32,000 nucleotides of DNA. Origin: Candidatus Saccharimonadota bacterium (GTDB lineage Archaea; Nanobdellota; Nanobdellia; Pacearchaeales; GW2011-AR1). The stretch spans positions 180,001 through 212,000 of the forward strand of contig JBAZYG010000001.1 in assembly GCA_041659445.1 (NCBI GenBank), given 5' to 3'. Below, in pieces: positions 12,483-24,469 of this stretch. How positions within the stretch are numbered: the stretch's first letter is position 1; each line of letters begins with the position of its first letter. The translations under genes were made by a program, and so were the position numbers. Below the pieces are notes generated by a model, which saw nothing but the letters and a program-made list of their open reading frames with translations, was not told where the DNA came from and ran no database searches.

Positions 12483-12555
12483 TGCCCCGTCCGGGATTCG
12501 GACCCGGGTTCCAGCCTTGAAAGGGCTGTGTCCTTGGCCTCTAGACTAACGGGGC
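12483..12555 (-). tRNA. tRNA-Glu (anticodon UUC), 73 nt, no encoded CCA
   Basis: The reverse complement folds as a cloverleaf. Acceptor GCCCCGT/ACGGGGC plus discriminator A. D stem GTCT/GGAC. Anticodon stem CAGCC/GGCTG with loop CTTTCAA. T stem CCGGG/CCCGG with loop TCCGAAT. Confidence 0.9.
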
Positions 12556-12720: not shown

Positions 12721-12843
12721 GAGCCTGTAGCTCAGCCTGGTTAGAGCACCGCTCTTATATGAATGTTGCTTTCAAAAAGCAATATCCTTTCTGGATTAGT
12801 CTAAGAAAGGCGGGGGTCCTCGGTTCAAATCCGAGCAGGCTCA
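12721..12843 (+). tRNA. tRNA-Ile (anticodon UAU) with a 48-nt intron at the canonical 37/38 position
   Basis: Acceptor GAGCCTG/CAGGCTC plus A73. D arm GCTC-AGCCTGGTTA-GAGC. Anticodon stem CCGCT/GGCGG. After splicing the loop is CT-TAT-AA. Variable loop GGGTC. T arm CTCGG-TTCAAAT-CCGAG. The exon junctions lie in 3-nt bulges (TAT and AAA) separated by a 4-bp helix CTTA/TAAG, which is a BHB motif. Confidence 0.88.
12760..12807 (+). other. tRNA-Ile intron (bulge-helix-bulge type)
   Basis: Removing 12760-12807 restores a 7-nt anticodon loop. The intron contains a 7-bp hairpin, ttgcttt/aaagcaa (12766-12782). A second pairing, cctttct/agaaagg (12786-12792 with 12804-12810), spans the 3' splice site. 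Confidence 0.75.
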
Positions 12844-13055: not shown

Positions 13056-16000
13056 ATGGTGAAAAAGTTTAAAATCTATTTGTTAATTTGTATAATATTA
13101 TTTGTGATTTTAATTGATTTTTTATCTGCAGAATCAATTTCTGATACTCTTCATTTAAACATTCAAACAACTTATTCAAATGGGACAATTCAACCTGGAA
13201 CTTTTACTTTTGTTTTTAATATAACTACAGATTCTGCATGTTCAAATGTTGTTTATTCAAATTCTTCAACCTTGACTACTGATTCAAGAGGAATTATTTC
13301 TTATTATCTTGAAAATGTAAATTTGAATTTTACAAATCAGTATTACTTATGTTATTACAGAGACGGTGTTTTGATTAATAATTCTAAAATTGCAAGAAGC
13401 CCATATTCTTTTACAACAAAAAACGCAACAGTTAGTGGATTAATTAAAGATGCTAATTTAAACATGACTGGATATAATATTAGTGCAGATTATTTTTCAG
13501 GGACAGGAGCAAATTTAACAGAAAATTTAACTATTGGGAAAAAAATCATTTTTGGATTTGGTGAAACAATTGATAATTTAGTCAGTGGTTGGATTAAAAT
13601 AACTGGAAGTGCTAATGTTACAGGAAGTTTAATTGTCAACGGAAATATTAATTCTACTACTGGAGATATTTGTATAACAGGAGGAAATTGTTTGAGTACA
13701 GTTGCTTCAGGAACAGAACCTTTATGGACAGCAAACTTTACTGCTTATAACACGTCGTGGAGTTCAACTTATAATTCAAGTTATGTTCCTTATACTGGCT
13801 CAACTGCGAATGTTAGTTTAGGAGCTTATAATTTCAGCGTCGGAGGAACTGATTTTTTTGTTAATTCAAATAAAGATTCAATTTCATCTGGAGGTTCAAC
13901 AGCTTCGGGATTATATTCTGTTGCTTTAGGTGAATCAAATATTGCTTCAGGAGATGATTCAGTATCTTTAGGTTATAGTAATACTGCTTCAGATACTGGT
14001 GCTGTTGCCATTGGTTATCAATCAACTTCTTCTGCACCTTATTCAACAGCCTTAGGATATATGACAACTGCTTCTGGACAAAAATCAACTGCTTTTGGTG
14101 CATCAACAATAGCGTCATCAGATTATGCAATTGCAATGGGTTATTCAACTATTGCATCAGGAACATATTCTACAGCAATTGGTAGAGGAATAAATGTTTC
14201 TGGTTCAAATTCTGTTGGTATTGGATTAAATGATCAATCAGGAACTGTTCTTAGTCAAGCAAATACAATGTCAATTATGGGTGGAACAGTTGGAATAAAT
14301 ACAACAGCTCCTAAAAATACTTTAAATGTCATCGGAACAGGAAATATAACTGGAAATGTAACTTCACAAACTGATTTTTGTATTGAAGGTGGAAATTGTT
14401 TAAGTAGTGCTGTTGGAAGTTTAGGAAATATTTCAGGAGGTGGAGTAGAAAATTATATTCCTAAATGGATTGGATCAGCAAGTTTAGGGAATTCACTTGT
14501 TTATGATAATGGAACTTATGTTGGTATTGGAACAGCAACTCCAACATATCTTCTCGACGTGAATGGAAGTGGAAATATTGTGAATGATTTTAGAGTTGGA
14601 AATGATTTATTTGTTACAGGTTGGGTAAATTCAAGTGAAGATGTTTGCATTGTTGGAGGAAATTGTTTGAGTACAGTTGCTTCAGGAACAGAACCATTAT
14701 GGACTGCTAACTTTACTGCTTATAATTCTTCTTGGTCATTTACTTATAATGCAACTTATGACTCTTATAATTCAACTGGATTAATTAAAGATTGGAATTC
14801 TTCGGGTTTAATAATAAATTGGAGTACTGAATCTGGAATTGAATCTGATCCTTTATGGACTGCTAACTTTACTGCTTATAACTCGTCGTGGTCTTCAACT
14901 TATAATTCAAGTTATAATACTGCTTATAATTATACAATAAATGGGACATTTATGAGGAAAGATGGAGACAATGGTACTGGAGTTTATAATTTTGGAGGAG
15001 CTTGGAACGACGGAGGATTAACAATTTCTAATGGAAATTTGTATGCTCAAACTGTTTATGTTTATAATATAACTTCTTTGCAAGTTTCAAATTTAAACAT
15101 TAATGGTTCTTTAATTCCGCAAATTGGTTTTGATAATACTTTTGATGTTGGAAGTTCTTCATTAAGATGGAGAGATTTATACGTCGGTAGAAATATTTTT
15201 TCAAATGGAAGTATTAATGTTGATTCAGGAGGAGATATTTGTATTGTTGGGGGAAATTGTTTGTCAACATCTGGAACAGGTTCTGGAACAATTACAGGAG
15301 CTGGAACAGCGACGTATGTTCCCTTATGGAACGGAACTTCTTCGTTGAATAACTCAGTGATTTATCAAAATGGAAGTAAAATTGGAATTAATACCACTAT
15401 TCCGACAGCGACATTAGATGTTAATGGAAATATTCATGCTTCAGATATTTTTGCAACAGATGTTATTTCTGGAAGCACTGTTGGTTTTGTTTCAGTTGGT
15501 TTAGGTGGTTCTATTGGTGCACATAAAACTAATTATGATGCTAAAATTACCTTTCCTGAAACAGATGATATTTCTATTTATACAGGACTTTCTGGAGAAT
15601 TATTAAGAATTTCTGGGGATGATGGTGCTGTTGGAATTGGCGAATCAATTCCAGTGTATAAATTAGAGATTAAGGGAGTTCCTATGCCCTTGGAAACACC
15701 GTCGGGTAATGGTTATTTTGGAATAACTAATATTTCAGATGGAGATATTTTAGAAATTGATTATTCTGGGAATGTTGGTATAAATACTTCAACTCCACAA
15801 AATAAATTAAATGTCGTCGGAGATGGAAATTTTACAGGAAATTTATATTCTAATGGAGCACAAGTTTTAACATCTTATACTGAAACAGAACCATTATGGA
15901 CAGCAAACTTTACTGCTTATAACACGTCGTGGAGTTCAACTTACAATTCAACATATGCAAATTGGAATAAAACTTATGCTGATACTTTATATTCATCAAT

Positions 16001-17594
16001 CTCAGAACCTTTATGGACAGCAAACTTTACTGCTTATAACACGTCGTGGAGTTCAACTTATAATGCAAGTTATGATGCAAAATTAAGTGGAGTAGGAACT
16101 TCAGGTTATATTGCTGCGTGGAATGGAACTTCTTCGTTGAATAATTCAATTATTTATCAAAATGGAACTACCTTAAATATTTCTGGAAATATCTTTGTTC
16201 AAGGCGGTTCTGGAGATGTGAATAGTAATGGTGCTGTTAATTCAGCTGATTCATTATGGGTTAAACAATATTTAGCAGGAGCAGTTAATTTAACTGCAAA
16301 GCAATATGCAGAAGCAGATGTAAATGGAGATGGAAGAGTTGATTATTCAGATGTAGATTTAATTGAGCAAAAACTTACTGTTGAAGGATTGCCTTTAAAT
16401 GAAGTTCAAAGAGAAGGAAAAAGAGCTGTTGATTCAGCATATTTTATTGATTATGACAAAGATTTTGGGATAGGAAATTATTTTTCTGATGCTGGAGATT
16501 ATAATCTTACAAGTAAACTTTATGTTAATGGAACAGGAAATATCACACAAGATTTTTATGTTGGAAATGATTTAATTGTTACAGGTTGGGTAAATTCAAG
16601 TGAAGATTTTTGTATTGTTGGAGGAAATTGTTTAAGTAATAGTGCAGATGTTTCAGAACCTTTATGGACTGCAAACTTTACTGCTTATAACACGTCGTGG
16701 AGTTCAACTTATAATTCAAGTTATGTTCCTTATACTGGCTCAACTGCAAATGTTACTTTAGGAGATTATAATTTTTCAGTTGGGACTTCTGATTTTTTTG
16801 TTAATGCGGATTTAAGTTCAATTTCGTCTGGGGCAAGCTCAACAGCTTCGGGATTATATTCTGTTGCTTTAGGATATGTATCAACAGCTTTAGGGCCTTC
16901 TTCAGTAGCTGTTGGGAATCATGCATTCTCTTCAGGTGATTCTTCAATAGCATTAGGGCATTATACAAATGCTTCAGGTGATTCTTCAATAGCATTAGGT
17001 GATTTAACAAATGCTTCAGGAGCTTCTTCAACAGCGACTGGTTTTGCAACAACAGCTTCGGGATTTTTATCAACAGCAATGGGTAGAGAAATTATTGCAG
17101 GAGGAGATTATAGTTTTGCTATTGCATTGAATGATCAAAATAATTTGAATGTTTCTCAAGCAAATACAATGGCAATTATGGGGGGAAATGTTGGTATTGG
17201 AACAGCGACTCCTAATTCTATTTTAACAACTAAAGGAAATAATGTTTCATTTTTATCTGTTGGTGGAGAAAAAAGATTTTATTTTTTATCAAACGCAGAT
17301 GGTAATGAAGCTGTTTTTACAATGTATGATTTTTCAGAAACTGCAAGAATTTATTTGAATACTTATTCAGATAGTTACCTTAATGTTCCAACTGGAAAAT
17401 TTGGTATTAATACTTCAGCTCCTAAAAATACATTAAATGTTGTCGGAGATGGAAATTTTACTACAAATCTTTTTGTTGGAAGTAATATAACAACAGAAAA
17501 ATTAGTTTTTGAAACAAGTGCTTCTCATTACATCGACGATAATTCAACTTGTGTTAAAATTTACGGAAGTACAAGTATTTTAGAAATATGTTAA
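13056..17594 (+). CDS. Giant secreted mosaic fibre/adhesin-like protein (1512 aa): YadA-head-like repeats, tail-fibre-like motifs, embedded dockerin
   Basis: Sec-type signal (MVKKFKIYLLICIILFVILIDFLSA|ES). Two blocks of 14-residue xSxAxGxxxxASGx repeats. Five [DE]xCIxGGNCLS Cys-pair motifs. Recurrent (V/I)GI(G/N)TxxPxxxLxVxGxGN strings. Six EPLWTANFTAYNxSWSxTYN repeats. One dockerin-like double Ca-loop segment. Very high N-x-S/T density. Confidence 0.9.
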   Translation: MVKKFKIYLLICIILFVILIDFLSAESISDTLHLNIQTTYSNGTIQPGTFTFVFNITTDSACSNVVYSNSSTLTTDSRGIISYYLENVNLNFTNQYYLCYYRDGVLINNSKIARSPYSFTTKNATVSGLIKDANLNMTGYNISADYFSGTGANLTENLTIGKKIIFGFGETIDNLVSGWIKITGSANVTGSLIVNGNINSTTGDICITGGNCLSTVASGTEPLWTANFTAYNTSWSSTYNSSYVPYTGSTANVSLGAYNFSVGGTDFFVNSNKDSISSGGSTASGLYSVALGESNIASGDDSVSLGYSNTASDTGAVAIGYQSTSSAPYSTALGYMTTASGQKSTAFGASTIASSDYAIAMGYSTIASGTYSTAIGRGINVSGSNSVGIGLNDQSGTVLSQANTMSIMGGTVGINTTAPKNTLNVIGTGNITGNVTSQTDFCIEGGNCLSSAVGSLGNISGGGVENYIPKWIGSASLGNSLVYDNGTYVGIGTATPTYLLDVNGSGNIVNDFRVGNDLFVTGWVNSSEDVCIVGGNCLSTVASGTEPLWTANFTAYNSSWSFTYNATYDSYNSTGLIKDWNSSGLIINWSTESGIESDPLWTANFTAYNSSWSSTYNSSYNTAYNYTINGTFMRKDGDNGTGVYNFGGAWNDGGLTISNGNLYAQTVYVYNITSLQVSNLNINGSLIPQIGFDNTFDVGSSSLRWRDLYVGRNIFSNGSINVDSGGDICIVGGNCLSTSGTGSGTITGAGTATYVPLWNGTSSLNNSVIYQNGSKIGINTTIPTATLDVNGNIHASDIFATDVISGSTVGFVSVGLGGSIGAHKTNYDAKITFPETDDISIYTGLSGELLRISGDDGAVGIGESIPVYKLEIKGVPMPLETPSGNGYFGITNISDGDILEIDYSGNVGINTSTPQNKLNVVGDGNFTGNLYSNGAQVLTSYTETEPLWTANFTAYNTSWSSTYNSTYANWNKTYADTLYSSISEPLWTANFTAYNTSWSSTYNASYDAKLSGVGTSGYIAAWNGTSSLNNSIIYQNGTTLNISGNIFVQGGSGDVNSNGAVNSADSLWVKQYLAGAVNLTAKQYAEADVNGDGRVDYSDVDLIEQKLTVEGLPLNEVQREGKRAVDSAYFIDYDKDFGIGNYFSDAGDYNLTSKLYVNGTGNITQDFYVGNDLIVTGWVNSSEDFCIVGGNCLSNSADVSEPLWTANFTAYNTSWSSTYNSSYVPYTGSTANVTLGDYNFSVGTSDFFVNADLSSISSGASSTASGLYSVALGYVSTALGPSSVAVGNHAFSSGDSSIALGHYTNASGDSSIALGDLTNASGASSTATGFATTASGFLSTAMGREIIAGGDYSFAIALNDQNNLNVSQANTMAIMGGNVGIGTATPNSILTTKGNNVSFLSVGGEKRFYFLSNADGNEAVFTMYDFSETARIYLNTYSDSYLNVPTGKFGINTSAPKNTLNVVGDGNFTTNLFVGSNITTEKLVFETSASHYIDDNSTCVKIYGSTSILEIC
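13716..13784 (+). repeat. EPLW repeat copy 1 (EPLWTANFTAYNTSWSSTYNSSY)
   Basis: In-frame 69-nt unit. Near-identical at the DNA level to copies 4, 5 and 6. Confidence 0.9.
13908..14189 (+). repeat. YadA-head-like (Hep_Hag-type) 14-residue repeat block 1
   Basis: GLYSVALGESNIASGDDSVSLGYSNTASDTGAVAIGYQSTSSAPYSTALGYMTTASGQKSTAFGASTIASSDYAIAMGYSTIASGTYSTAIGRG has the periodic S/T-x-A-x-G pattern of left-handed beta-roll adhesin heads. Confidence 0.7.
14691..14759 (+). repeat. EPLW repeat copy 2 (EPLWTANFTAYNSSWSFTYNATY)
   Basis: In-frame 69-nt unit, more diverged at synonymous sites. Confidence 0.9.
14847..14915 (+). repeat. EPLW repeat copy 3 (DPLWTANFTAYNSSWSSTYNSSY)
   Basis: In-frame 69-nt unit. 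Confidence 0.9.
15888..15956 (+). repeat. EPLW repeat copy 4 (EPLWTANFTAYNTSWSSTYNSTY)
   Basis: In-frame 69-nt unit. Its core, atggacagcaaactttactgcttataacacgtcgtggagttcaactta, is identical to copy 5. Confidence 0.9.
16005..16073 (+). repeat. EPLW repeat copy 5 (EPLWTANFTAYNTSWSSTYNASY)
   Basis: In-frame 69-nt unit, 117 nt downstream of copy 4. Confidence 0.9.
16215..16376 (+). other. Dockerin-like domain (two EF-hand-like Ca-binding loops) inside the 1512-aa protein
   Basis: DVNSNGAVNSADSLWVKQYLAG...ADVNGDGRVDYSDVDLIEQKL has two DxNxDGxxxxxD loops, each followed by a helix. This is the duplicated segment architecture of type I dockerins. Confidence 0.75.
16656..16724 (+). repeat. EPLW repeat copy 6 (EPLWTANFTAYNTSWSSTYNSSY)
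   Basis: In-frame 69-nt unit. It begins a stretch (16656-16755) that shows 2 mismatches in 100 nt against 13716-13815. Confidence 0.9.
16851..17090 (+). repeat. YadA-head-like 14-residue repeat block 2
   Basis: GLYSVALGYVSTALGPSSVAVGNHAFSSGDSSIALGHYTNASGDSSIALGDLTNASGASSTATGFATTASGFLSTAMGRE shows the same periodicity as block 1. Confidence 0.7.
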
Positions 17595-17595
17595 A

Positions 17596-20500
17596 ATGGT
17601 TAATATTAAATCAAAAAAAAAGTTTTTTTTATTTTTGTTAGTCGTAACTTTTTTTATAATTCTTTTTGAAATTAGCTCGACTTCTGCTTGGCTTACTGGA
17701 TATGATTACAGAAAACAAATTAATCTTACTGGAGGAACTAATGCAGGAAATGATTATCAAATAAAATTAACAATAGGAAATACATCAGGAGGAGATTTTA
17801 ATTTAGGTGGAAATGCAACAAATTTTCCAAATGATATAAGATTTACAGATGACGACGGAGAAACACTCTTGCCCTATTGGATTGAAAATACAACAAGTCC
17901 AGCAATTTTTTGGGTTAAAGTAAATGATTCTCTTAATTCAAATCAAATTATTTATATTTATTATGGAAACTCAACTGTTTCAAGTGCAACTAACGGAACT
18001 GCGACTTTTGTAATGTTTGATGATTTTGAAAGCACTGCTTTAAATGCAGTCCCAGATTCAAGCAAATGGGTAATTACTGGAACAGACGCAAACGATAATG
18101 TAACTATTTATTTAGACCCAGCAAATGCTTCAAATCAAGTTGCAAGGACAATTGAACAAATTGATGGAGTTGGAACAAGATTATGGGTTAAAAATCTTAC
18201 TTCAAGTAATTATTCTTTTGATTTTGATTATAGAACAAGTGTAAATAGAGTTTATTATTTTTACATATATGATGGTGCTACTATTAGGACAACTATGAAT
18301 CTTGATACTACATTTCATTGGTATAATGGGGCAGCTTATCAAAATTTTGCCCCAGCAACTCCATCTCATTCTACAAATACTTGGTACGATACCGAAATAT
18401 TTGTAGCAGGACCTTTTTTAAATATGACTATTAATGGAGTAAATTATAAAGGAGGAGTTCGTTCAAATGCAACAGCATCAGTTACCTCATTAGTGATGAA
18501 TCCACATACTGCAAGTTTAACTCCTCCATTATACCAATATGTTGATGATTTTAGAGTAAGAAAGTTCTCTATGAATCCTCCAGTATTAAGTGCTGTCGGA
18601 GGACAAGAATTAATTCAAGGATTGACCTGTGGAAACTTATCTGATGGAACTTATACACTCACACAAAATGTAACAAGTAACACTACTTGTTTTATAACAA
18701 ATTCTACAAATGTTATTCTTGATTGTCAAGGATTTTATATTTATGGAAATAATTCTCCATCTTCTTATGGAGTATATTCAAATTATCCCAATACCACAGT
18801 TAAAAATTGTAATATTTTTAATTATTCTTCAGGTATAATTTTAGACAGCAATGCAAATTCAACATTAGAAAACAATACTATAAATGTTACTTTTAGCTCG
18901 GGTTCTGATGATTATGGAATTAAATTGGGTTCTGGAGTAAATTCAACAACTAAAAATAATATAATTAATGGTTCAGGAACAAATATTTATGCTTATATGT
19001 CTTATGCAATAAATAGTTCTTCAATTAATGACACAATATTTGTCCCTTCGGGTAGGGCTTCATTTTATTCCGTTGGAACTACAATGAATCAAGTTTTTAA
19101 TTTCACAAAACTAAATGGGAAAGGAGTAATATTTTATCAAGGAAATCCTTCATTTTACAATTTAAAAATGAATACAACTTCAGGTTCATCTATGGATTTA
19201 CCAAGAAATATTACCTTAAAAAACATAACAATAAATACAAATGGAGATGCTGATGCTGTAACAATATCAGGTGTAGGCGTTCATTTAGATTGTGAAAACG
19301 GAGTAATTAATGGTTCAAATATAGCATCAAGAAGTGGAGTATATTCTTCAGTAGGAAATGCTAAAATTAAAAATTGCAATATAAATAATTTCAATTATTG
19401 TATTAGGATATATGGAGGTATGAATAATTCTGTTGAAAATATTATTGCAACAACATCTTATAATGGTGGGATTCCATTAAATATTTATTTTCAATCAAAT
19501 TATACTCTTGTGAATAATTTCACAGGTTCAGCTCTTGTTAATGGTTTTGGTTTATCAATTCAATATTCAAGCCATAATGTAATTAATAATTCTAACTTTA
19601 ATTCACTTGGAGGTAGAGGAATTTATTTTTATGGTTTAATTGGAACAGGTTTAACTTTAAATAACACCCTAAACAATTCTTCAGGGAATTCTTCTTCAAA
19701 TTATGGAATTCAACTTTCAAGTTCTAATGATAATCTTATTTATAATTCCAATGGTTCAAGTAATACCTTAACAGGAATAGATTTAACAGATTCAAGTAAT
19801 AATTATTTTAATAATATAATTGGAAATTTAACAAACAATCCTACATCAACAGGTGACGGAATTACTCTCGAATCTAATTCAATAAATAATACTTTTGAAA
19901 ATTCTTTTGCAATATCAAACTCTCAAAAGGTAGATTCTTACAATTCTGCTTTTAGAATTTTTTACAGCAATAATAACACTCTTAATAATGTCACAGCAAA
20001 TGTTACAGGAATTAATGCAACAGGGATTTCCTTATATTCTTCAAATTATACTTTAATTAATGGTTCTGTTGGAGATAGCAACAATTTTAATAATTCGGGT
20101 TCAGGTATGCTGTTATCAAATTCAAGTCATAATGTACTTAATAATTCTGTTGCAATAAGTGGTCTAGGAAATGGGGCTTTGGGATTAAATACAAATAGTA
20201 ATTATAATAATATTGTAAATTTTATTGGAATTGCAAACTCAACTGAATATGGATGCAAATCTGTTGAGCCAAAATTAACTAACAACGTTGCCATTTTCAT
20301 AACAACAAGTAGTAGTTATAATAATTTAACAAATGTTTCAGGTTATAGTCGAAGTGAAGACGGAATTGCATTTTATAATAATTCTGCAAACAATATTGTA
20401 AATAATAGTTTGGGTTTAACTTATTCAAGTGTTGGGATTTTATTAACCAATTGGGCGTCTGATAATCAAGTTATTAATAGCACAGCAATCGCAATGGGTG

Positions 20501-21315
20501 GTTCTTGTGGAGGTGGAAAAGCATTTGGTATTGCAGATAATTCAAGTAGAAATAATATAACTAATATAACAGCAATTCAATATGGTGCTGTTTCAACAGA
20601 TGGGGCTTTTTTTATACGATGCATTGGGGCAACAGCCGAATGTCATCCTAATTTTAATAATACAGTAATTAATTCTAAAATTTTAATTTACAATTCTACA
20701 AATGGTATTTCAATAACAGACAATTCAACAGGAAATGTAATAAGAAATATTTCAATAAATTCAACATATACTTCTTCAACATTAAGTTTGCTAAAAGTTA
20801 ATTCATCAAATAATGTTTTTTGCTTAAACAATTTTACAAGTAATCTTGGAATTTATATAAATGATTCAAATGGAAGCAATACTTATAATTGCTCTTATGG
20901 TGGAAAGGTTCAAGGAAATATTTATGAAAATGTGAATAATGGAACAATAAATGTTCTCGGTTCAGAAAATTCTTCAATAGCAAATTACTATATTGGAAAA
21001 TATGGTTCTGGATATCCTTATAATCAAACAAATTCTTTAAATAAAATCTATGGTGCGGTAGACTACGTTCCTTTAACAATTTATTTAACTTCTTGCGCTT
21101 ATTCTGGTTCTGGAAATTGGGTAATAAATTGTTCAGAAAATTGCACCATATTAAGTAATACAGATGTAGTGGAAAATAATATTTCTATACTTGGAGTAGG
21201 AACTTTTAGAACTTCTGCAAATATAACTGGTTTTAGTAAATTAATAATTGCAGGAATAGATTCTTCAAATATTTGTAGAGTTACTTGTTTTGATGGGGGA
21301 TGTTTTAAAGATTAA
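17596..21315 (+). CDS. Secreted giant protein (1239 aa): DUF2341-like N-domain, LamG/concanavalin-like region, long right-handed parallel beta-helix (PbH1) repeat array
   Basis: Signal peptide (...ISSTSA|WLTG). WLTGYDYRKQINLTGG...NFPNDIRFTDDDGETLLPYWIE...FWVKV...IYIYYGN matches the DUF2341 signature as I recall it. From about aa 340 to 1100 there are tens of about 22-aa N-rich repeats of the type NxxxNNxIxNxxxGIxLxxSxxN. The start is 1 nt after the previous stop. Confidence 0.9.
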   Translation: MVNIKSKKKFFLFLLVVTFFIILFEISSTSAWLTGYDYRKQINLTGGTNAGNDYQIKLTIGNTSGGDFNLGGNATNFPNDIRFTDDDGETLLPYWIENTTSPAIFWVKVNDSLNSNQIIYIYYGNSTVSSATNGTATFVMFDDFESTALNAVPDSSKWVITGTDANDNVTIYLDPANASNQVARTIEQIDGVGTRLWVKNLTSSNYSFDFDYRTSVNRVYYFYIYDGATIRTTMNLDTTFHWYNGAAYQNFAPATPSHSTNTWYDTEIFVAGPFLNMTINGVNYKGGVRSNATASVTSLVMNPHTASLTPPLYQYVDDFRVRKFSMNPPVLSAVGGQELIQGLTCGNLSDGTYTLTQNVTSNTTCFITNSTNVILDCQGFYIYGNNSPSSYGVYSNYPNTTVKNCNIFNYSSGIILDSNANSTLENNTINVTFSSGSDDYGIKLGSGVNSTTKNNIINGSGTNIYAYMSYAINSSSINDTIFVPSGRASFYSVGTTMNQVFNFTKLNGKGVIFYQGNPSFYNLKMNTTSGSSMDLPRNITLKNITINTNGDADAVTISGVGVHLDCENGVINGSNIASRSGVYSSVGNAKIKNCNINNFNYCIRIYGGMNNSVENIIATTSYNGGIPLNIYFQSNYTLVNNFTGSALVNGFGLSIQYSSHNVINNSNFNSLGGRGIYFYGLIGTGLTLNNTLNNSSGNSSSNYGIQLSSSNDNLIYNSNGSSNTLTGIDLTDSSNNYFNNIIGNLTNNPTSTGDGITLESNSINNTFENSFAISNSQKVDSYNSAFRIFYSNNNTLNNVTANVTGINATGISLYSSNYTLINGSVGDSNNFNNSGSGMLLSNSSHNVLNNSVAISGLGNGALGLNTNSNYNNIVNFIGIANSTEYGCKSVEPKLTNNVAIFITTSSSYNNLTNVSGYSRSEDGIAFYNNSANNIVNNSLGLTYSSVGILLTNWASDNQVINSTAIAMGGSCGGGKAFGIADNSSRNNITNITAIQYGAVSTDGAFFIRCIGATAECHPNFNNTVINSKILIYNSTNGISITDNSTGNVIRNISINSTYTSSTLSLLKVNSSNNVFCLNNFTSNLGIYINDSNGSNTYNCSYGGKVQGNIYENVNNGTINVLGSENSSIANYYIGKYGSGYPYNQTNSLNKIYGAVDYVPLTIYLTSCAYSGSGNWVINCSENCTILSNTDVVENNISILGVGTFRTSANITGFSKLIIAGIDSSNICRVTCFDGGCFKD

Positions 21316-21316
21316 A

Positions 21317-22510
21317 ATGAAAATTGGAAATTTATTTTTTGTTTTTTTTATTTTTCTTTTTTCAATTTTAACTTTTGTAATTGTTTCAGCAGATGTTATT
21401 TCTGTTAATTCAGGAGGAAGTGAAAATGTAATAATAACTGCAGATAAATATCTTGAAGGTTTTTTCTTTTCTTCAAGAGACATTAATAATTTACCGAGCA
21501 ATCCTTTAAATGTAAAATTGGTTTCCTTGAATGGAAGAAATGAGTCAGATACTGATTTGAATTGTTCAGGATATATTACTGACGTTGAGAATTTGACTTT
21601 GACAGTATATGTAGATTGGATTAAAGATGATAATTCACAATTTATTCAAGTTTTTGAAAATCAATTAAACAATTCTGTGTTTTCAACTTTGTTAAATAAT
21701 GGAAATTTAAGTTTAGGAGATGTTTGGAAATGTTCATTGAAAGTTTCTGATGGAGAATATAATAGTAGTTGGATTGACTCAAATGAATTAACTATTATTG
21801 ATATAACAAATCCAAATGTAACAATTGTTCATCCAAATTCTTCTGCTAATTACACAAGTTTAGATATTGATTTCAATATTTCGATTTCTGAAAATGAAAA
21901 TATTTCTTGGTGTGGTTACAGCGTCAATGGAACAGCGAATGTAACAATGATTAGATTAAATGATTCTTATTTTTGGCATGAACCCCCAAACTTAACAGTT
22001 GGATTAAATAATGTAACTTTTTATTGTAATGATACTTCTGGAAATTGGGGAACAAATTTCACGAATTTTACAATTTTAGACGAGGCTGCAATTGCAATTC
22101 AATTGTCTCCTGCATTAAGTTTAACTGTTAATTGGACTTTGGAAAGTTTGCCTGCTAATGATTTGAACGCAGAAGGAAATAATTTAACTGGAGATACTTT
22201 GTATTGGGTAAATTTATCTGTAACTGCAACTACTGCAGATTTATACGTGAAAGCCGACGGAGATTTGCAAACTTTAGATTTAGATATTCTTGGTTTAGGA
22301 AATGAAACTTTTTGTGCAAATTTAACAAATTCTTCTGTTCCTGATTTAAATAGATTGATTATGAATACAAGTTATGTTTTAATTGCTGAAGATCTTCCTA
22401 GTAGTATAATTTATTTGAAATTTTATCTTGATGCTCCGTCGGGACAAGCAGCAGGAACTTATTTGAATAATTTAGATTTCAAAGCAGTAAATCATGGAAA
22501 CACTCCTTAA
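21317..22510 (+). CDS. Secreted three-domain protein; its C-terminal domain is paralogous to the 22586 and 23847 proteins (candidate tip or adaptor subunit)
   Basis: I prefer ATG 21317 (MKIGNLFFVFFIFLFSILTFVIVSA|DV), 1 nt after the upstream stop. The ORF-track start 21290 is a TTG and 21293 is an in-frame ATG, both overlapping the previous gene. Two beta-sandwich-like N-domains are present (GDVWKCSLKVSDGEY; WCGYSVNGTANVTM...VTFYCNDTSGNWG). The C-terminal part is ADLYVKADGDLQTLDLDILGLGNETF...LKFYLDAPSGQAAGTYLNNLDFKAV. Confidence 0.85.
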   Translation: MKIGNLFFVFFIFLFSILTFVIVSADVISVNSGGSENVIITADKYLEGFFFSSRDINNLPSNPLNVKLVSLNGRNESDTDLNCSGYITDVENLTLTVYVDWIKDDNSQFIQVFENQLNNSVFSTLLNNGNLSLGDVWKCSLKVSDGEYNSSWIDSNELTIIDITNPNVTIVHPNSSANYTSLDIDFNISISENENISWCGYSVNGTANVTMIRLNDSYFWHEPPNLTVGLNNVTFYCNDTSGNWGTNFTNFTILDEAAIAIQLSPALSLTVNWTLESLPANDLNAEGNNLTGDTLYWVNLSVTATTADLYVKADGDLQTLDLDILGLGNETFCANLTNSSVPDLNRLIMNTSYVLIAEDLPSSIIYLKFYLDAPSGQAAGTYLNNLDFKAVNHGNTP

Positions 22511-22585
22511 TTTTTTAAAAGAAATTAATTTCACTAGAAAAAATAAATCTTTATAAAGTATATTCTCTTATTTAAATCAATTAAT

Positions 22586-23203
22586 ATGAAAAAGAAAGGT
22601 GTGATATTTTATCGTTTGATTTTGATTTTAATTCTTTTAGCAGTTATTGTTTTATTAATTGTTCAAAATCTTCCTAAAGTTACTGGAAATTCAATTACTG
22701 GTTTTGCAACAAGTGGAAATACTACTTCAAATGTTACAATTACTTCTTATTTATCAATTGCGTTTTGTGATAATTTATCTACAGGAATTTGGTTTGGAGA
22801 AGTTGCAAGTTTACCTGTAACAAATCAAAATGGAACACATAATGCAGATGGTGCTAGTAGTGGAAGTACTTATTGTTTGAATGTTTCTGCTGATTCAAAT
22901 ACAAATGTTGATTTTTGTACAAAAGCAAGTGGAAATTTGACAACAACCGGAGCAGATGTTATTGTTTTAGCAAATGAAACTTGGAATAATGCAACAACCA
23001 CAGATGCAACAACTCCATCTTATGCTACTGAAAATATTTTGACAACAGATTATGTCAAATCCGGTGGTAATGTTGCTAGCGACGGTACTGGTGTCAATTA
23101 TTACAGATTCTGGTTAGATATTCCAGGTGGACAAGCAGCAGGAACATATAATAATACTGTATTTTTCAAAGGAGTAAATACTGGAAATCCATGTGGTGCA
23201 TAA
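22586..23203 (+). CDS. Small sequon-rich secreted/anchored protein, paralogue family member (205 aa)
   Basis: The N-terminus MKKKG-VIFYRLILILILLAVIVLLIV is a basic leader plus a 22-residue hydrophobic helix. It also has SIAFCDNLSTGIWFGEV, NVSADSNTNVDFCTKASGNL, LANETW and YYRFWLDIPGGQAAGTYNNTVFFKGV. There are about nine N-x-S/T sequons. It has its own TATA-like ctttataaag upstream. Confidence 0.85.
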   Translation: MKKKGVIFYRLILILILLAVIVLLIVQNLPKVTGNSITGFATSGNTTSNVTITSYLSIAFCDNLSTGIWFGEVASLPVTNQNGTHNADGASSGSTYCLNVSADSNTNVDFCTKASGNLTTTGADVIVLANETWNNATTTDATTPSYATENILTTDYVKSGGNVASDGTGVNYYRFWLDIPGGQAAGTYNNTVFFKGVNTGNPCGA

Positions 23204-23210
23204 AATTAAA

Positions 23211-23840
23211 ATGAAGAAAAAAAAGGTGACATTCGTTGAGAAAATTTTGTTTTTAAGTTTAGTCTTGACTTTGATTTTACCTTTGGCAACTGCAGGTGTT
23301 GGTGTTAAATGGAGTAAAGAATCTTCTTTAGTTTCAGAAAATTCAAAAGTTTGTATGTCTTATGATGTTTATAATCCATGGCCACAAGATACTTATGCTA
23401 CAATTAGTTTATCTCCGGAATTAATGGAAATTATTGATTATATTGGTTCAGATATTGTTTTCCTTCCTAATGAGACATCAAGTACAAATGCTATTCCTGT
23501 TGAATTTTGTTTTAAAACACCAAAAGTTTATGAAAAAGATTGTTGGGTTGGAGATGTATTTTTTTGTAAGCAAGATTGTTTAGAAGAAATGAAAACTTAT
23601 GAAGGTGAAGTGTTGGTAATGGAAACTTCTCCAGATCAATCATCTCAATCTGCACAAGGTTCTGCTACTAAAATGTCTGTTTCTGCACCTTTGAGAATTA
23701 GAGTTCAATGTGAAGCACAAAATAGAAATTTCAGTGCATTGTATGTTCTTGTTGGACTTATTGCATTAATATTATTGATAATAAATTTAGTTAAAAACAA
23801 GAAAAGCAAGCAAAATAAAAAGATTAAGAAAAAGAAATAA
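23211..23840 (+). CDS. Type I membrane protein: signal peptide, Cys-containing beta-rich ectodomain, C-terminal TM anchor and poly-Lys tail
   Basis: I prefer ATG 23211 (MKKKKVTFVEKILFLSLVLTLILPLATA|GVGVKW). The track start 23193 is a GTG overlapping the upstream gene. The C-terminus is ALYVLVGLIALILLIINLV-KNKKSKQNKKIKKKK. Confidence 0.8.
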   Translation: MKKKKVTFVEKILFLSLVLTLILPLATAGVGVKWSKESSLVSENSKVCMSYDVYNPWPQDTYATISLSPELMEIIDYIGSDIVFLPNETSSTNAIPVEFCFKTPKVYEKDCWVGDVFFCKQDCLEEMKTYEGEVLVMETSPDQSSQSAQGSATKMSVSAPLRIRVQCEAQNRNFSALYVLVGLIALILLIINLVKNKKSKQNKKIKKKK

Positions 23841-23846
23841 AATCAT

Positions 23847-24431
23847 ATGATTTCTAAAAATCAAATTTTTTATAAGACTTTTTTGATTGTGATAATTTTT
23901 TTATGCGTTATCTTAATTATTTTTCAAAATTCAAATAATTTTACTGGAAATTATTTATTAAATACTACATCTAATGTTTCATTATTTAAATATTATTCAA
24001 TTGCGTTTAGTGATAATTTGTCTTCTGGAATTGAATTTGGAACAATAGAAAATCTTCCTGCAGTTAGTGTTAATGCAACATATAATTATTTGGGTTTGAG
24101 TAATTCAACAGAATATTTTATTAATGTTTCAAATGATTCAAATACAAATATTGATTTTTGCATAAAAGCCGACGGAGATTTAGAAAGTATTGCAAGTGAT
24201 ATTTTGGGATTAGGAAATGAAACTTATAATAATGCAACATTCACTAATTTATCCTCGCCCTCGGATACAGAGGTTTTGTTGACGACTTCTTATGTTAAAT
24301 CAGGAAGTAATGTTTTAATTGGTGGAGTAAATTATTATCGTTTTTGGCTTGATGTTCCATCAGGACAAGCAGCTGGAACATATAACAATACTGTTAATTT
24401 CAAAGCAGTTGAAACAGATTATTCTTGTTAA
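23847..24431 (+). CDS. Small sequon-rich secreted/anchored protein, paralogue family member (194 aa)
   Basis: The N-terminus MISKNQ-IFYKTFLIVIIFLCVILIIF is homologous to that of the 22586 protein. It also has SIAFSDNLSSGIEFGTI, NVSNDSNTNIDFCIKADGDLES..DILGLGNETY and YYRFWLDVPSGQAAGTYNNTVNFKAV. There are about a dozen sequons. Confidence 0.85.
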   Translation: MISKNQIFYKTFLIVIIFLCVILIIFQNSNNFTGNYLLNTTSNVSLFKYYSIAFSDNLSSGIEFGTIENLPAVSVNATYNYLGLSNSTEYFINVSNDSNTNIDFCIKADGDLESIASDILGLGNETYNNATFTNLSSPSDTEVLLTTSYVKSGSNVLIGGVNYYRFWLDVPSGQAAGTYNNTVNFKAVETDYSC

Positions 24432-24469
24432 TTAGAAAGCATTAAAAATCTGAAATTATTATTTTCTTT

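What the first reader, a model, noticed from the sequence alone, without database searches (positions are those of the whole stretch)
13056..17594. Mosaic 1512-aa fibre protein combining bacterial-adhesin-like and phage-tail-fibre-like modules in an archaeon
Two blocks have the 14-residue S/T-x-A-x-G-x4-A-S-G periodicity characteristic of YadA-type (Hep_Hag) left-handed beta-roll heads of trimeric autotransporter adhesins. Strings such as NYIPKWIGSASLGNSLVYDNGTYVGIGTATPTYLLDVNG and VGINTSTPQNKLNVVGDGNFTGN recur. I recognise these from tail-fibre-domain proteins of bacteria and phages. Five Cys-pair loops ([DE]xCIxGGNCLS) punctuate the modules. The protein has a Sec signal but no obvious membrane anchor or autotransporter barrel, so how it stays on the cell is unclear. 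The embedded dockerin may do this.
Basis: partly seen in the sequence, partly recalled or inferred. Interest (0 to 1): 0.7.

Follow-up and report, generated by a model that had tools for sequence, protein, structure and literature searches.

The report
Mosaic surface fibre of a DPANN archaeon
This gene encodes a long, secreted, sugar-coated fibre protein of a tiny symbiotic archaeon, assembled from the same building blocks that bacterial adhesins, predatory-bacterium "grappling" fibres and phage tail fibres use to grab other cells, which makes it a good candidate for how the archaeon recognises its host.

Summary
In detail: ORF 13056-17594(+) encodes a 1512-aa protein with a Sec-type signal peptide and no other hydrophobic segment. 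It has two YadA_head arrays (Pfam E=3e-31), a type I dockerin (E=6.5e-13), five D.C[IV].GGNCLS loops and six EPLWTANFTAYN repeats.

The "tail-fibre" strings (VGI[GN]T..P...L) are the capping-loop motif of the Bdellovibrio MAT (mosaic adhesive trimer) fibres and S74-type phage fibres. A family profile hits four MAT crystal structures (E 3e-12 to 5e-6) and phage tail-fibre PHROGs (E=1e-8).

The constant part is an unannotated Ig-like N-terminal domain directly after the signal peptide. It has 650 cluster representatives among 1.84 billion proteins, nearly all loci found in genomes are Woese-/Pace-/Nanoarchaeota, and it is absent from viral contigs. It is distantly homologous (hhalign 95.8%) to the N-domains of bacterial fibres.

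Among 173 family members in hand, only this one carries YadA arrays and a dockerin, so the dockerin cannot be the family's cell anchor. The closest named YadA relatives are archaeal, so a recent bacterial transfer is not indicated.

Best reading: a glycosylated, probably trimeric, MAT-like adhesive fibre held by its N-domain. The trimer state and host binding are inferred. I rate it a new variant of a known kind, of moderate interest.

The parts
13056..13130 (+). Sec-type signal peptide (aa 1-25, MVKKFKIYLLICIILFVILIDFLSA|ES)
   Evidence: This is the only hydrophobic stretch in the protein. Homologs have equivalent n/h/c regions ending in SA, VSA or ISA. The public gene call P0001 starts 16 codons downstream and truncates it.
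13131..13445 (+). Constant N-terminal Ig-like beta-sandwich domain (aa 26-130; LHLNIQTT...QYYLCYYRDG...SPYSF), the family-defining 'constant end' and proposed cell-proximal attachment domain
   Evidence: Alignment A1 has 36 sequences and 12 invariant columns, including a conserved Cys pair. The AF2 model has pLDDT 83.6 and six strands. There is no specific PDB relative by sequence or fold and no Pfam or PHROG hit. The exhaustive search found 650 cluster representatives, always N-terminal. hhalign to the N-domains of bacterial and other archaeal fibres gives 95.8%, E=6.8e-9.
13557..14336 (+). Supermodule 1 (aa 168-427): Cys loop, EPLW connector, YadA-like head array 1 (aa ~274-405), then capping loop
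   Evidence: It is 58% identical to supermodule 2. The flank is ~95% identical, the head core is 47% identical, and there is one 14-aa indel. Evidence for the head comes from Pfam YadA_head and PDB hits to BpaC, BoaA/Hep_Hag and CbpF.
13875..14270 (+). YadA_head array 1 (left-handed beta-roll, 14-residue period)
   Evidence: Pfam gives E=1e-24 on the isolated segment. Lag-14 self-identity is 0.42. phmmer aligns it to 7o23, 3s6l, 9u93 and 1p9h.
14289..14330 (+). Capping loop 1 (VGINTTAPKNTLNV). Further copies are at 14520-14561, 15381-15422, 15630-15671, 15774-15815, 17190-17231 and 17400-17441
   Evidence: Coordinates are. The motif aligns to both structurally defined capping loops of Bd3182 (8OJN) at E=9.7e-5. 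It is the same motif as MAT Supplementary Fig. 18. Profile hits reach Bd2133, Bd3182, Bd2439 and Bd1334, and phage tail-fibre PHROGs also match.
13665..13697 (+). Cys loop 1 (D.C[IV].GGNCLS, C-x5-C). Further copies are at 14373-14405, 14640-14672, 15234-15266 and 16605-16637
   Evidence: See; the DNA repeat family is D2. The loop is present in 23 of 173 family members and in the archaeal protein P0015. A role as a disulfide clasp is inferred only.
13716..13784 (+). EPLWTANFTAYN.SWS.TYN connector repeat 1. Further copies are at 14691-14759, 14847-14915, 15888-15956, 16005-16073 and 16656-16724
   Evidence: See; the DNA repeat family D1 has 6 copies. No Pfam, PHROG or PDB match was found.
14991..15185 (+). 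Single-copy 'GGW...IYAQ...INGSL.P...FDVGSSSLRWRDLYV' module (aa 646-710), part of the family core
   Evidence: It is present once per protein in the family members that carry it and in the minimal 469-aa member at the syntenic locus L015. Several members weakly hit tail fibre or tail spike PHROGs (phrog_7121, phrog_1171, phrog_15695), and cyanophage fibre 8i4m scores E=0.046.
16212..16376 (+). In-line type I dockerin (aa 1053-1107) with two intact Ca-binding loops (DVNSNGAVNSAD and DVNGDGRVDYSD)
   Evidence: Pfam gives E=6.5e-13, or 2.5e-14 on the isolated segment. PDB dockerins 4fl4, 8x39, 1ohz and 2ccl match. It is unique among the 173 family members.
16482..17237 (+). Supermodule 2 (aa 1143-1394): Cys loop, EPLW connector, YadA-like head array 2 (aa ~1254-1378), then capping loop
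   Evidence: The AF2 model has pLDDT above 90 over aa ~1265-1395, with strands every 14 residues. Foldseek matches BoaA, BpaC, CbpF, AtaA (rmsd 1.6 A), EibD (2.0 A) and YadA. The profile scores BpaC at 3.7e-46.
17442..17591 (+). Short C-terminal tail (aa 1463-1512, ...DDNSTCVKIYGSTSILEIC). It has no S74 chaperone, transmembrane segment or barrel
   Evidence: The same tail type occurs in P0002 and P0011. Other family members use other short tails (VIEG, IFRI, IIEL, VQVW) or Peptidase_S74. The monomer model is low-confidence here.
17596..25930 (+). Same-strand downstream cluster of secreted or membrane-anchored proteins. It holds a DUF2341 + beta-helix protein that starts right after the fibre's stop codon (17594), three paralogs sharing a C-terminal motif, and two proteins with a C-terminal TM
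   Evidence: An o24470-like gene lies downstream of the fibre gene in L015, L035, L055 and L069, and in L015 and L055 it is followed by YchF. Functional linkage to the fibre is inferred.

Best explanation
The gene encodes a Sec-exported, heavily N-glycosylated cell-surface fibre of a DPANN archaeon of the Woese-/Pace-/Nanoarchaeota group. It is built on the same plan as the Bdellovibrio 'mosaic adhesive trimer' (MAT) fibres and S74-type phage receptor-binding fibres.

The parts, in order:
- A signal peptide is followed by a family-constant Ig-like N-terminal domain. I infer that this domain holds the fibre on the archaeon's own envelope.
- The rest is a long stalk, roughly 90-110 nm if it scales like Bd3182. 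It consists of 'cap, bead, cap' beta-prism units delimited by VGIGT..P...L capping loops, Trp-rich EPLW connectors and C-x5-C loops (possibly disulfide clasps).
- Uniquely in this family member, the stalk also carries two YadA-like left-handed beta-roll heads and an in-line type I dockerin.

The variable modules would provide multivalent binding to surface glycans or proteins of another cell, most plausibly the host. The dockerin would let a cohesin-bearing partner plug onto the fibre.

Shown: domain composition, motif identity with MAT and phage fibres, the YadA-head fold of the protomer, export signal and sequon enrichment, lineage distribution, chromosomal (non-viral) context, and the mosaic and duplicated structure.

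Inferred: homotrimer, N-domain anchoring, host adhesion and dockerin function.
For: - Composition: YadA_head at 3e-31 and Dockerin_1 at 6.5e-13. Every other module lacks a Pfam hit.
- MAT link: the Bd3182 capping loops align at E=9.7e-5. The published MAT consensus and its loop alignment are the same motif. The family profile A2 hits Bd2133 at 3e-12, Bd3182 at 2.7e-8, Bd2439 at 9e-7 and Bd1334 at 4.5e-6, alongside TAA heads (BpaC at 3.7e-46).
- Phage link: phrog_9942 'tail fiber protein' at 9.9e-9, with phrog_18345 and phrog_3269. BFVD matches are Caudovirales and giant-virus proteins annotated with YadA-like head, S74 or collagen-repeat domains.
- Fold: the block-2 protomer has pLDDT above 90 and matches BoaA, BpaC, AtaA, EibD and YadA.
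- MAT-like architecture at family level: signal peptide, then a constant beta-rich N-domain, then a variable remainder. There are 650 cluster representatives and the domain is always N-terminal. Members end in Peptidase_S74 (P0020, 1.9e-16) or carry Phage Tail Collar, gp53-like_C or YadA_stalk. A minimal 469-aa member sits at the syntenic locus.
- The N-domain is homologous to the N-domains of fibres from Patescibacteria, Margulisiibacteriota, Kapabacteria and Aenigmarchaeota (hhalign 95.8%).
- Extracellular glycoprotein: there are 76 N-x-S/T sequons against 35.6+-5.0 in shuffles, and a single N-terminal hydrophobic segment.
- Cellular, not viral: the flanks are housekeeping genes. The locus next to YchF is conserved in relatives. 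There are 0 N-domain relatives in IMG/VR.
- Lineage: 99 relatives were found in GTDB genomes, and nearly all of the 80 loci kept are Woese-/Pace-/Nanoarchaeota.
Against: - No multimer prediction or experiment was possible, so the trimer is inferred. The inference rests on every solved YadA-like head in the hit list coming from a trimeric autotransporter adhesin, and on the MAT fibres being intertwined trimers.
- The bead and tail regions model poorly as a monomer, with pLDDT around 50.
- Similarity to MAT structures is concentrated in the cap motifs and adjacent strands; the bead interiors do not align.
- Homology of the N-domain to the Bdellovibrio MAT N-domain could not be tested, because no Bd N-terminal sequence was obtainable.
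- Relatives show about one copy per genome, unlike the 21-paralog MAT repertoire.
- No binding partner, host or cohesin is identified.
- There is no large C-terminal 'tip' domain of the kind that mediates binding in non-S74 MATs.
Confidence: 0.7

Rival explanations
1. It is a structural or matrix fibre (envelope sheath, cell-cell aggregation or biofilm tether) with no role in specific host recognition. The mosaic modules would serve only as a rigid glycosylated spacer.
For: There is no recognisable lectin or TNF-like tip domain; the C-terminal tail is only ~50 aa. The gene heads a cluster of other secreted or anchored envelope proteins. There is about one copy per genome at a conserved chromosomal locus, as expected of a housekeeping envelope component.
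Against: The variable part is extremely mosaic between close relatives, while the N-domain is conserved at 50-71% identity. That pattern is typical of receptor-binding proteins under diversifying pressure. In the duplicated supermodule, the YadA head cores have diverged far more (47% identity) than their flanks (~95%). All characterised relatives of the modules (TAA heads, MAT fibres, phage RBPs) are adhesins.
Confidence: 0.15
2. It is part of a cellulosome-like extracellular complex. The dockerin would be the key functional element, docking the fibre onto a cohesin scaffold (on the cell or on a partner) as a substrate- or surface-binding arm of a polysaccharide-degrading assembly that includes the downstream beta-helix protein.
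For: The type I dockerin is intact, with both Ca loops. The gene immediately downstream encodes a secreted DUF2341 + right-handed beta-helix protein, a fold common in polysaccharide lyases and depolymerases.
Against: No cohesin is found in any ORF of at least 100 aa in the 32-kb window, even at E<=10 for the surface-protein cluster. The dockerin is present in 1 of 173 family members, so it is an accessory, not the core function. No glycoside hydrolase or lyase catalytic family was detected in the cluster; the beta-helix match is marginal at 25.6 bits against a cutoff of 25.9.
Confidence: 0.08
3. It is a viral or proviral tail-fibre (receptor-binding) gene resident in the archaeal chromosome.
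For: Cap modules hit phage tail-fibre PHROGs. The model matches phage and giant-virus proteins with YadA-like or S74 domains. Some family members carry Peptidase_S74, Phage Tail Collar or gp53-like domains.
Against: The protein has a Sec signal peptide. The flanks are housekeeping genes and no capsid, terminase, portal or integrase was detected. The same locus (GT2 ... fibre ... YchF) is conserved in related genomes. The family-defining N-domain has no relative in 2.9 million IMG/VR contigs and no PHROG hit.
Confidence: 0.03
4. It is a recently imported bacterial adhesin gene, or a bacterial contig binned as archaeal by mistake.
For: YadA_head is best known from proteobacterial TAAs. Many hits are from Bacteroidota, Patescibacteria and Kapabacteria.
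Against: Archaeal markers lie on the same contig. GC content is a uniform 24-34% across the window. The N-domain is restricted to DPANN genomes. The closest YadA supermodules that can be placed are archaeal: P0015 lies beside L24e, S28e and L7Ae, and others are from Woesearchaeota, Thermoplasmata and Aenigmarchaeota. None exceeds ~64% identity over a partial length. The TAA anchor barrel is absent.
Confidence: 0.04

Closest known systems
Bdellovibrio bacteriovorus MAT (mosaic adhesive trimer) fibres, non-S74 subgroup (Caulton et al. 2024, PMC10769870; PDB 8OJN, 8OND, 8OL4, 8OML)
   Same: The plan is the same: a signal peptide, then a conserved beta-rich N-terminal domain of ~100-130 aa with no PDB homolog, then a long mosaic fibre. 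The capping-loop motif (x-V-G-I-G/N-T-x-x-P-x-x-x-L) is identical. Both families include members that end in S74 and members that do not, and both sit on the surface of a cell that must recognise another cell.
   Different: This protein is archaeal, so there is no outer membrane. Its N-domain belongs to a DPANN-specific subfamily whose homology to the Bd N-domain is untested. It contains YadA-like heads (never mentioned in the MAT paper's main text or supplement), a dockerin, C-x5-C loops and EPLW connectors. It has no large C-terminal tip domain. Relatives carry about 1-2 copies per genome instead of 21. It is heavily enriched in N-glycosylation sequons.
Trimeric autotransporter adhesins (YadA, BpaC, BoaA, EibD, AtaA, CbpF, UspA1)
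   Same: The two 14-residue-periodic arrays are bona fide YadA-like head repeats by Pfam, PDB profile and predicted fold.
   Different: There is no C-terminal YadA_anchor beta-barrel and no YadA_stalk or neck hit. Secretion is by an N-terminal Sec signal in an organism without an outer membrane. The heads are embedded in a MAT/phage-type fibre, not sitting on a coiled-coil stalk.
S74-type phage tail fibres and tailspikes, and the bacterial 'tail fiber domain-containing proteins' (YadA_head + Peptidase_S74) of Bacteroidota, Patescibacteria and relatives
   Same: They share the supermodule 'YadA array ... AIALNDQN..V.Q.NTMAIMGG.VGIGT..P' at 40-48% identity. Tail-fibre PHROGs match, and the same domain combination occurs in Caudovirales and giant viruses.
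   Different: The window protein lacks the Peptidase_S74 intramolecular chaperone. It carries a signal peptide and the DPANN N-domain, is chromosomal, and has no virion genes nearby.
Non-cellulosomal dockerin-bearing proteins; type I dockerins of Clostridia (PDB 4fl4, 1ohz, 2ccl)
   Same: It has a canonical duplicated F-hand dockerin with both calcium loops.
   Different: The dockerin is embedded in-line in a fibre, not at a terminus of an enzyme, and no cohesin partner was found nearby.
TAA-like and LamG surface-protein operons noted in cultivated nanohaloarchaea (SVXNc_0803; PMC10266531)
   Same: That is also a DPANN archaeon with a ~1700-aa 'trimeric autotransporter adhesin-like' protein in an operon with other large surface proteins proposed to mediate host attachment.
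   Different: It belongs to a different DPANN phylum. Only annotation-level description is available, so sequence relationship to the present family was not tested.

Membership tests
MAT (mosaic adhesive trimer) superfamily | N-terminal signal peptide | tested here: met
   A single N-terminal hydrophobic segment with a ...LSA|ES c-region, conserved in homologs. This is judged from hydropathy and alignment; no SignalP-type predictor was available.
MAT (mosaic adhesive trimer) superfamily | Conserved beta-rich ~130-aa domain immediately after the signal peptide, homologous to that of Bd MATs | tested here: inconclusive
   An equivalent constant all-beta domain is present and is homologous to the N-domains of bacterial fibres. 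Like the MAT N-domain, it has no PDB homolog. No Bdellovibrio N-domain sequence could be obtained for a direct comparison.
MAT (mosaic adhesive trimer) superfamily | Capping-loop motif V-G-(I)-G/N-pi-x-x-P-x-x-x-L on beta-helix edges | tested here: met
   There are seven copies. They align to both Bd3182 loops and match the published loop alignment.
MAT (mosaic adhesive trimer) superfamily | Intertwined trimeric beta-helix/beta-prism fibre | tested here: inconclusive
   The profile hits four MAT crystal structures, but the alignments are anchored on the caps only. The monomer AF2 model of the bead has pLDDT ~50. No multimer prediction was available.
MAT (mosaic adhesive trimer) superfamily | Variable C-terminal end: an S74 chaperone or an alternative adhesive tip | tested here: inconclusive
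   The family has S74-ending members (P0020, P0026, P0073) and members with other ends. The window protein lacks S74 and has only a ~50-aa tail, with no recognisable tip domain.
MAT (mosaic adhesive trimer) superfamily | Large paralogous repertoire per genome (21 in HD100) | tested here: not met
   The 80 loci kept come from 79 assemblies, and only one assembly has two. This is a lower bound, because the scan used two peptide patterns.
Trimeric autotransporter adhesins (type Vc) | YadA-like head repeats (left-handed parallel beta-roll) | tested here: met
   Pfam scores 3e-31, the profile scores BpaC at 3.7e-46, and the fold matches with prob 1.0.
Trimeric autotransporter adhesins (type Vc) | C-terminal YadA_anchor beta-barrel translocator in an outer membrane | tested here: not met
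   Pfam gives no YadA_anchor hit on the whole protein or on the C-terminal segment. The protein ends in a short hydrophilic tail, and the organism is an archaeon.
Trimeric autotransporter adhesins (type Vc) | Coiled-coil stalk and neck connectors | tested here: not met
   The window protein has no YadA_stalk hit, and the modelled third has no helices of 4 or more residues. A different family member (P0023) does have YadA_stalk.
S74-type phage tail fibre / tailspike | C-terminal Peptidase_S74 intramolecular chaperone (SDxxxK) | tested here: not met
   There is no PF13884 hit and no SD.R[LF]K motif.
S74-type phage tail fibre / tailspike | Profile similarity to phage tail-fibre families | tested here: met
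   phrog_9942 scores 9.9e-9, phrog_18345 9.6e-6 and phrog_3269 1.9e-6.
S74-type phage tail fibre / tailspike | Encoded in a viral genome among virion genes | tested here: not met
   The neighbours are housekeeping genes, and the N-domain is absent from IMG/VR.
Cohesin-dockerin system | Dockerin with two Ca-binding F-hand repeats | tested here: met
   Pfam scores 6.5e-13 and the loops are DVNSNGAVNSAD and DVNGDGRVDYSD.
Cohesin-dockerin system | Cognate cohesin-bearing partner | tested here: inconclusive
   None was found among the ORFs of at least 100 aa in the 32-kb window.

The most novel reading that the evidence does not exclude
The N-domain fibre family would be the host-recognition organ of Woese-/Pace-/Nanoarchaeota. 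It would be an archaeal counterpart of the prey-recognition fibres of Bdellovibrio and of phage receptor-binding proteins. One constant cell-proximal domain would carry a distal part that is continually re-shuffled from a module pool shared across archaea, CPR and other bacteria, and viruses. In this particular member the in-line dockerin would turn the fibre into a programmable adaptor onto which cohesin-tagged binding or lytic proteins can be plugged.
Probability: 0.3. Interest if true: 0.8.

Novelty: new variant of a known kind. Interest (0 to 1): 0.55.

Why it matters
How DPANN archaea find and hold on to their hosts is largely unknown, and for the uncultivated Woese- and Pacearchaeota there is essentially no molecular candidate.

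This analysis identifies a lineage-wide, previously unannotated protein family: 650 sequence clusters, one conserved chromosomal locus, and no Pfam model for its defining domain. Its design matches proteins that predatory bacteria and phages use to recognise target cells: a constant N-terminal domain, a hyper-mosaic remainder, and S74 or non-S74 ends.

That gives a concrete, testable handle. The N-domain can serve as a marker to pull out the fibres from any metagenome. The variable modules can be correlated with host range. Segments can be expressed for binding assays and EM.

It also shows that the YadA-head, capping-loop and S74 'fibre toolkit' spans archaea, bacteria and viruses. If the dockerin is functional, this member would be a rare example of a cohesin-dockerin plug built into an adhesin stalk.

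Tried and rejected
- Pfam on ten isolated segments gave nothing beyond YadA_head and Dockerin_1.
- The N-domain found no significant relative, either as profile A1 against PDB sequences or as its model against PDB folds. It is a generic Ig-like sandwich.
- The LRWR module, as a single sequence and as profile A4, was searched against the PDB. The apparent hits to designed Kelch 'SAKe' proteins (E as low as 2.5e-6) are rejected as summed weak repeat matches, because each stretch has an i-Evalue above 100.
- No cohesin was found in the window ORFs of at least 100 aa, at E<=0.01 overall and E<=10 for the five ORFs from 21290 to 25930.
- A search with the broader N-domain profile A3, meant to pull out Bdellovibrio MAT proteins, returned only 44 short fragments and none from Bdellovibrio.
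- The MAT paper's supplement holds no N-terminal sequences and does not mention archaea.
- Literature searches for DPANN with YadA, dockerin or tail fibre found no description of this family. The only precedent is an annotation-level 'TAA-like protein' in a nanohaloarchaeon.
- A first self-BLAST script printed nothing because of a scripting problem. It was replaced by local alignments.
- My first YadA regular expression was too strict and found nothing. It was corrected.
- The idea that the dockerin anchors the family is rejected, because only 1 of 173 members has it.
- A viral origin is rejected (and the gene context).
- Recent bacterial import of the YadA blocks is not supported.

Full report
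**1. Observation**

The ORF lies exactly where stated: 13056..17594 on the + strand, ATG start, 1512 aa. An identical protein, called with a start 16 codons downstream, is on a 90-kb ENA metagenome contig.

- Pfam finds YadA_head at E=3.1e-31 (7 stretches, 107 bits against a cutoff of 25) and Dockerin_1 at E=6.5e-13 over aa 1053-1107.
- Self-identity at a lag of 14 residues is 0.42 and 0.49 in the two blocks, against 0.09 in a control segment.
- There are five D.C[IV].GGNCLS loops, six EPLWTANFTAYN.SWS.TYN repeats, seven VGI[GN]T..P...L motifs and three Y[IV][PA].W.G..SL.NS motifs.
- These modules also appear as direct DNA repeats whose closest copies share 82-88% identity.
- The only hydrophobic windows fall within aa 1-32, so the protein has a signal peptide and no transmembrane anchor.
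- Pfam reports no autotransporter barrel.
- N-x-S/T sequons are enriched twofold: 76 observed against 35.6+-5.0 in shuffles.

**2. Organism and context**

GC content is 21-34% across the window. The neighbours are housekeeping genes with an archaeal signature:
- Elp3;
- a YchF-related GTPase of the PRK09602 type;
- ThrRS with an archaeal-type editing domain;
- Kae1/TsaD;
- a 123-nt intron-containing tRNA that Rfam finds and ARAGORN misses.

No capsid, terminase, portal or integrase family was detected. YchF is 74% identical to that of a Woesearchaeota MAG, L015, which has the same gene order: GT2, fibre, TM-anchored protein, YchF. The gene is therefore chromosomal, in a DPANN archaeon of the Woese-/Pace-/Nanoarchaeota group.

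It heads a same-strand cluster (17596-25930) of secreted or membrane-anchored proteins. The first of these starts right after the fibre's stop codon and carries DUF2341 plus a marginal beta-helix match.

**3. The YadA-like blocks**

- The single sequence hits BpaC, BoaA/Hep_Hag, CbpF and YadA in the PDB.
- A profile of aa 1196-1512 with 25 homolog segments (A2) hits BpaC at 3.7e-46, CbpF at 2e-19, Hep_Hag at 3e-17, YadA at 2e-11, and also EibD, AtaA, UspA1 and SadA.
- AlphaFold2 models aa ~1265-1395 at pLDDT above 90, with strands every 14 residues.
- Foldseek returns only TAA heads at the top: BoaA at 3.9e-4, AtaA at rmsd 1.6 A over 103 columns, and EibD at 2.0 A over 109.

The head identification is therefore solid. 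The protein is nevertheless not a trimeric autotransporter, because it has no anchor barrel and no stalk or neck hits.

**4. The 'tail-fibre-like' strings**

None of the remaining modules has a Pfam family. The weak PDB hit 8OJN turned out to be Bd3182, a Bdellovibrio 'mosaic adhesive trimer' (MAT) fibre. The paper behind it (PMC10769870) defines MATs by four features:
- a signal peptide;
- a conserved beta-rich N-terminal domain of ~130 aa;
- an intertwined trimeric beta-helix/prism fibre with 'capping loops' of consensus V-G-G/N-pi-x-x-P-x-x-x-L;
- either an S74 chaperone or another tip at the C-terminus.

The evidence linking the window protein to MAT and phage fibres is as follows.
- Window aa 400-545 aligns to Bd3182 at E=9.7e-5. 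Both structurally defined loops (RVGVGTTAPTSALH and FGINTAAPAYNIH) fall on VGINTTAPKNTLNV and VGIGTATPTYLLDV.
- The paper's own loop alignment (NVGIGATAPTAKLE, LVGINTAAPLQKLH, and others) is the same motif.
- Profile A2 also hits Bd2133 (3e-12), Bd3182 (2.7e-8), Bd2439 (9e-7) and Bd1334 (4.5e-6).
- These alignments are anchored on consecutive cap motifs with an unalignable bead between them. What is shared is the 'cap, bead, cap' unit, not a continuous domain.
- Scanned module by module, the cap modules hit phage 'tail fiber protein' PHROGs: phrog_9942 at 9.9e-9, phrog_18345 at 9.6e-6, and tail protein phrog_3269 at 1.9e-6.
- The model also matches Caudovirales and giant-virus proteins annotated with YadA-like head, S74 or collagen-repeat domains.
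- The single-copy GGW...IYAQ...FDVGSSSLRWRDLYV module has only weak phage-fibre affinities.

NCBI's 'tail fiber domain-containing' label on relatives goes with their Peptidase_S74 domain, which this protein lacks.

**5. The family and its constant end**

Sixty-two of the 119 other best hits share a ~100-aa domain directly after the signal peptide (LHLNIQTT...GTF.FVFNI...C...TTDSRGIISYYL...QYYLCYYRDG...PYSF), while everything downstream is shuffled.

- The domain has no Pfam, PHROG or PDB relative.
- It models confidently as a six-stranded Ig-like sandwich (pLDDT 83.6). The best Foldseek E-value is 3e-3 with TM no higher than 0.5. The MAT authors likewise report no PDB structural homologue for their N-domain.
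- An exhaustive HMM search of 1.84 billion cluster representatives finds 650 proteins at E<=1e-3 and 235 at E<=1e-30. The domain is always N-terminal, in proteins of 132-5130 aa.
- In GTDB species genomes the scan finds 99 relatives. Nearly all of the 80 loci kept are from Woese-, Pace- or Nanoarchaeota MAGs. Only one assembly holds two of them, and 54 of the 80 are cut by a contig end.
- IMG/VR holds none.
- Other members end in Peptidase_S74 (P0020, 1.9e-16) or carry Phage Tail Collar, gp53-like tail-fibre C-terminus or YadA_stalk.
- A minimal 469-aa member at the syntenic locus shows the core: N-domain, cap, LRWR module, bead, short Cys-containing tail.
- Profile-profile comparison shows the archaeal N-domain is homologous (95.8%, E=6.8e-9 over 90 columns) to the N-terminal domains of YadA/S74 fibres from Patescibacteria, Margulisiibacteriota, Kapabacteria and Aenigmarchaeota.
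- Whether the Bdellovibrio MAT N-domain is the same domain could not be tested.

**6. What is special about this member**

Among 173 N-domain proteins in hand, only the window protein has canonical YadA arrays and only it has a dockerin. By contrast, 56 of the 62 hits without the N-domain have YadA arrays. It is therefore a chimera of the DPANN fibre chassis with two copies of a 'YadA array + cap' supermodule that otherwise lives behind other N-termini.

The two copies (aa 168-427 and 1143-1394) are 58% identical. Their flanks are ~95% identical, the head cores are 47% identical, and there is a one-repeat indel.

The closest supermodules that can be placed taxonomically are archaeal:
- P0015, which lies beside ribosomal proteins L24e, S28e and L7Ae;
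- Woesearchaeota;
- Thermoplasmata, including a protein already annotated 'hemagglutinin-like';
- Aenigmarchaeota.

These are at 41-64% identity, and bacterial hits are no closer. A recent bacterium-to-archaeon transfer is therefore not indicated. The modules belong to a pool shared across domains and viruses.

**7. Mechanism**

I commit to the following model, with a confidence of about 0.7 for 'secreted trimeric MAT-like adhesive fibre'.
- After Sec export and N-glycosylation, three chains form a fibre.
- The constant N-domain keeps it on the archaeon's envelope. This is inferred by analogy with MATs and phage fibres, from its universal conservation, and from the absence of any other anchor.
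- The stalk is built of cap-bead-cap prisms, EPLW connectors and C-x5-C loops. A disulfide-clasp role for the loops is speculative.
- The two YadA heads, and perhaps bead clefts, provide binding surfaces for another cell.
- Scaling from Bd3182 (about 550 A) gives roughly 90-110 nm.
- The dockerin has intact Ca loops, but it is a one-off accessory located ~70% along the chain and no cohesin lies within 32 kb. It more likely recruits a partner to the fibre than anchors the fibre to the cell.

Host adhesion itself is inferred, at perhaps 0.5. The rivals are listed separately: a structural or matrix fibre, a cellulosome-like arm, a viral gene, and a bacterial import.

**8. Novelty and verdict**

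MAT fibres (2024), TAA heads and S74 phage fibres are all known. YadA-head proteins are already annotated in archaea, and a 'TAA-like' surface protein has been noted in a nanohaloarchaeon.

What appears undescribed:
- the DPANN-wide N-domain fibre family, which has no Pfam model and no paper found;
- its MAT-like logic in archaea;
- this member's combination with YadA heads and an in-line dockerin.

I rate it a new variant of a known kind, with interest 0.55. It is not surprising in kind, but it offers a concrete and testable candidate for DPANN host recognition.

Noticed in passing
window 12721-12843 (+): Rfam detects a 123-nt tRNA (55 bits) that ARAGORN misses. It presumably carries a ~50-nt archaeal intron. 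It sits just upstream of the fibre gene and next to tRNA-Glu (12483-12555, - strand).
   Followed up: partly
window 21290-22510, 22586-23203, 23847-24431 (+): Three secreted proteins downstream share a C-terminal motif (Y[YL][RK]F[WY]LD.P.GQAAGTY.NN..FK.V) and an N-terminal hydrophobic segment. One begins MKKKG|VIF..., which is reminiscent of a class III (pilin-type) signal. None has a Pfam family. They may be pilin-like or small surface subunits.
   Followed up: partly
window 24470-25930 (+); L015 8993-10069; also L035, L055, L069: A 486-aa protein has a signal peptide, a run of 15 Gly, beta-sandwich-like repeats, and a C-terminal TM followed by a Lys-rich tail. Homologs lie downstream of the fibre gene in four related loci, and in L015 and L055 they sit directly before YchF. 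It is a candidate membrane-anchored partner of the fibre.
   Followed up: partly
window 17596-21315 (+): A 1239-aa secreted protein starts right after the fibre's stop codon (17594). It has DUF2341 (E=4.6e-23) plus PbH1-like right-handed beta-helix repeats (marginal, 25.6 bits against a 25.9 cutoff) and many Cys. It may be a co-transcribed surface or depolymerase-like protein.
   Followed up: partly
window 13056 vs 13104: The public gene call (P0001, 1496 aa) starts 16 codons downstream of the ATG at 13056 and truncates the signal peptide. Homologs support the longer form.
   Followed up: yes
L020, L066, L025; protein P0024: A few N-domain loci are labelled bacterial: Patescibacteria on an 8-kb contig, Bacteroidales on a 3.8-kb contig, and 'bacterium' on a 237-kb contig. 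L025 also carries an o21290-like gene downstream, as the window does. These are probably mis-binned or mislabelled archaeal contigs and not inter-domain transfers.
   Followed up: no
P0140 (5130 aa), P0195 (3412 aa): Giant members of the N-domain family exist, so the fibre plan scales from 469 aa (L015) to more than 5000 aa.
   Followed up: no
N-domain model m704ef0dd164d and profile A3: Two independent weak signals point to the same PDB chain, the 94-residue 'Tail fiber protein' chain of the Ur-lambda tail tip complex (9e7m_Ta). Foldseek gives E=0.039 for the N-domain model, and the broader N-domain profile gives E=0.33. This is a lead that the constant domain may be related to a phage fibre attachment domain. 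It is not significant as it stands.
   Followed up: no
window 13557-14336 vs 16482-17237: The duplicated supermodule has diverged very unevenly. The EPLW...FSVG flank is ~95% identical, the YadA head core is only 47% identical, and there is a one-repeat indel. This pattern is compatible with gene conversion of the flanks or diversifying selection on the heads.
   Followed up: partly
L002-L081: 54 of the 80 related loci are cut by a contig end within 6 kb of the N-domain. These repetitive fibre genes therefore often break metagenome assemblies, and many database members are fragments.
   Followed up: yes
With short queries (110-177 aa), the word-indexed homolog search returned only short proteins (at most ~310 aa), although longer relatives are known. 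Its hit lists for short modules therefore under-sample full-length fibres.
   Followed up: no
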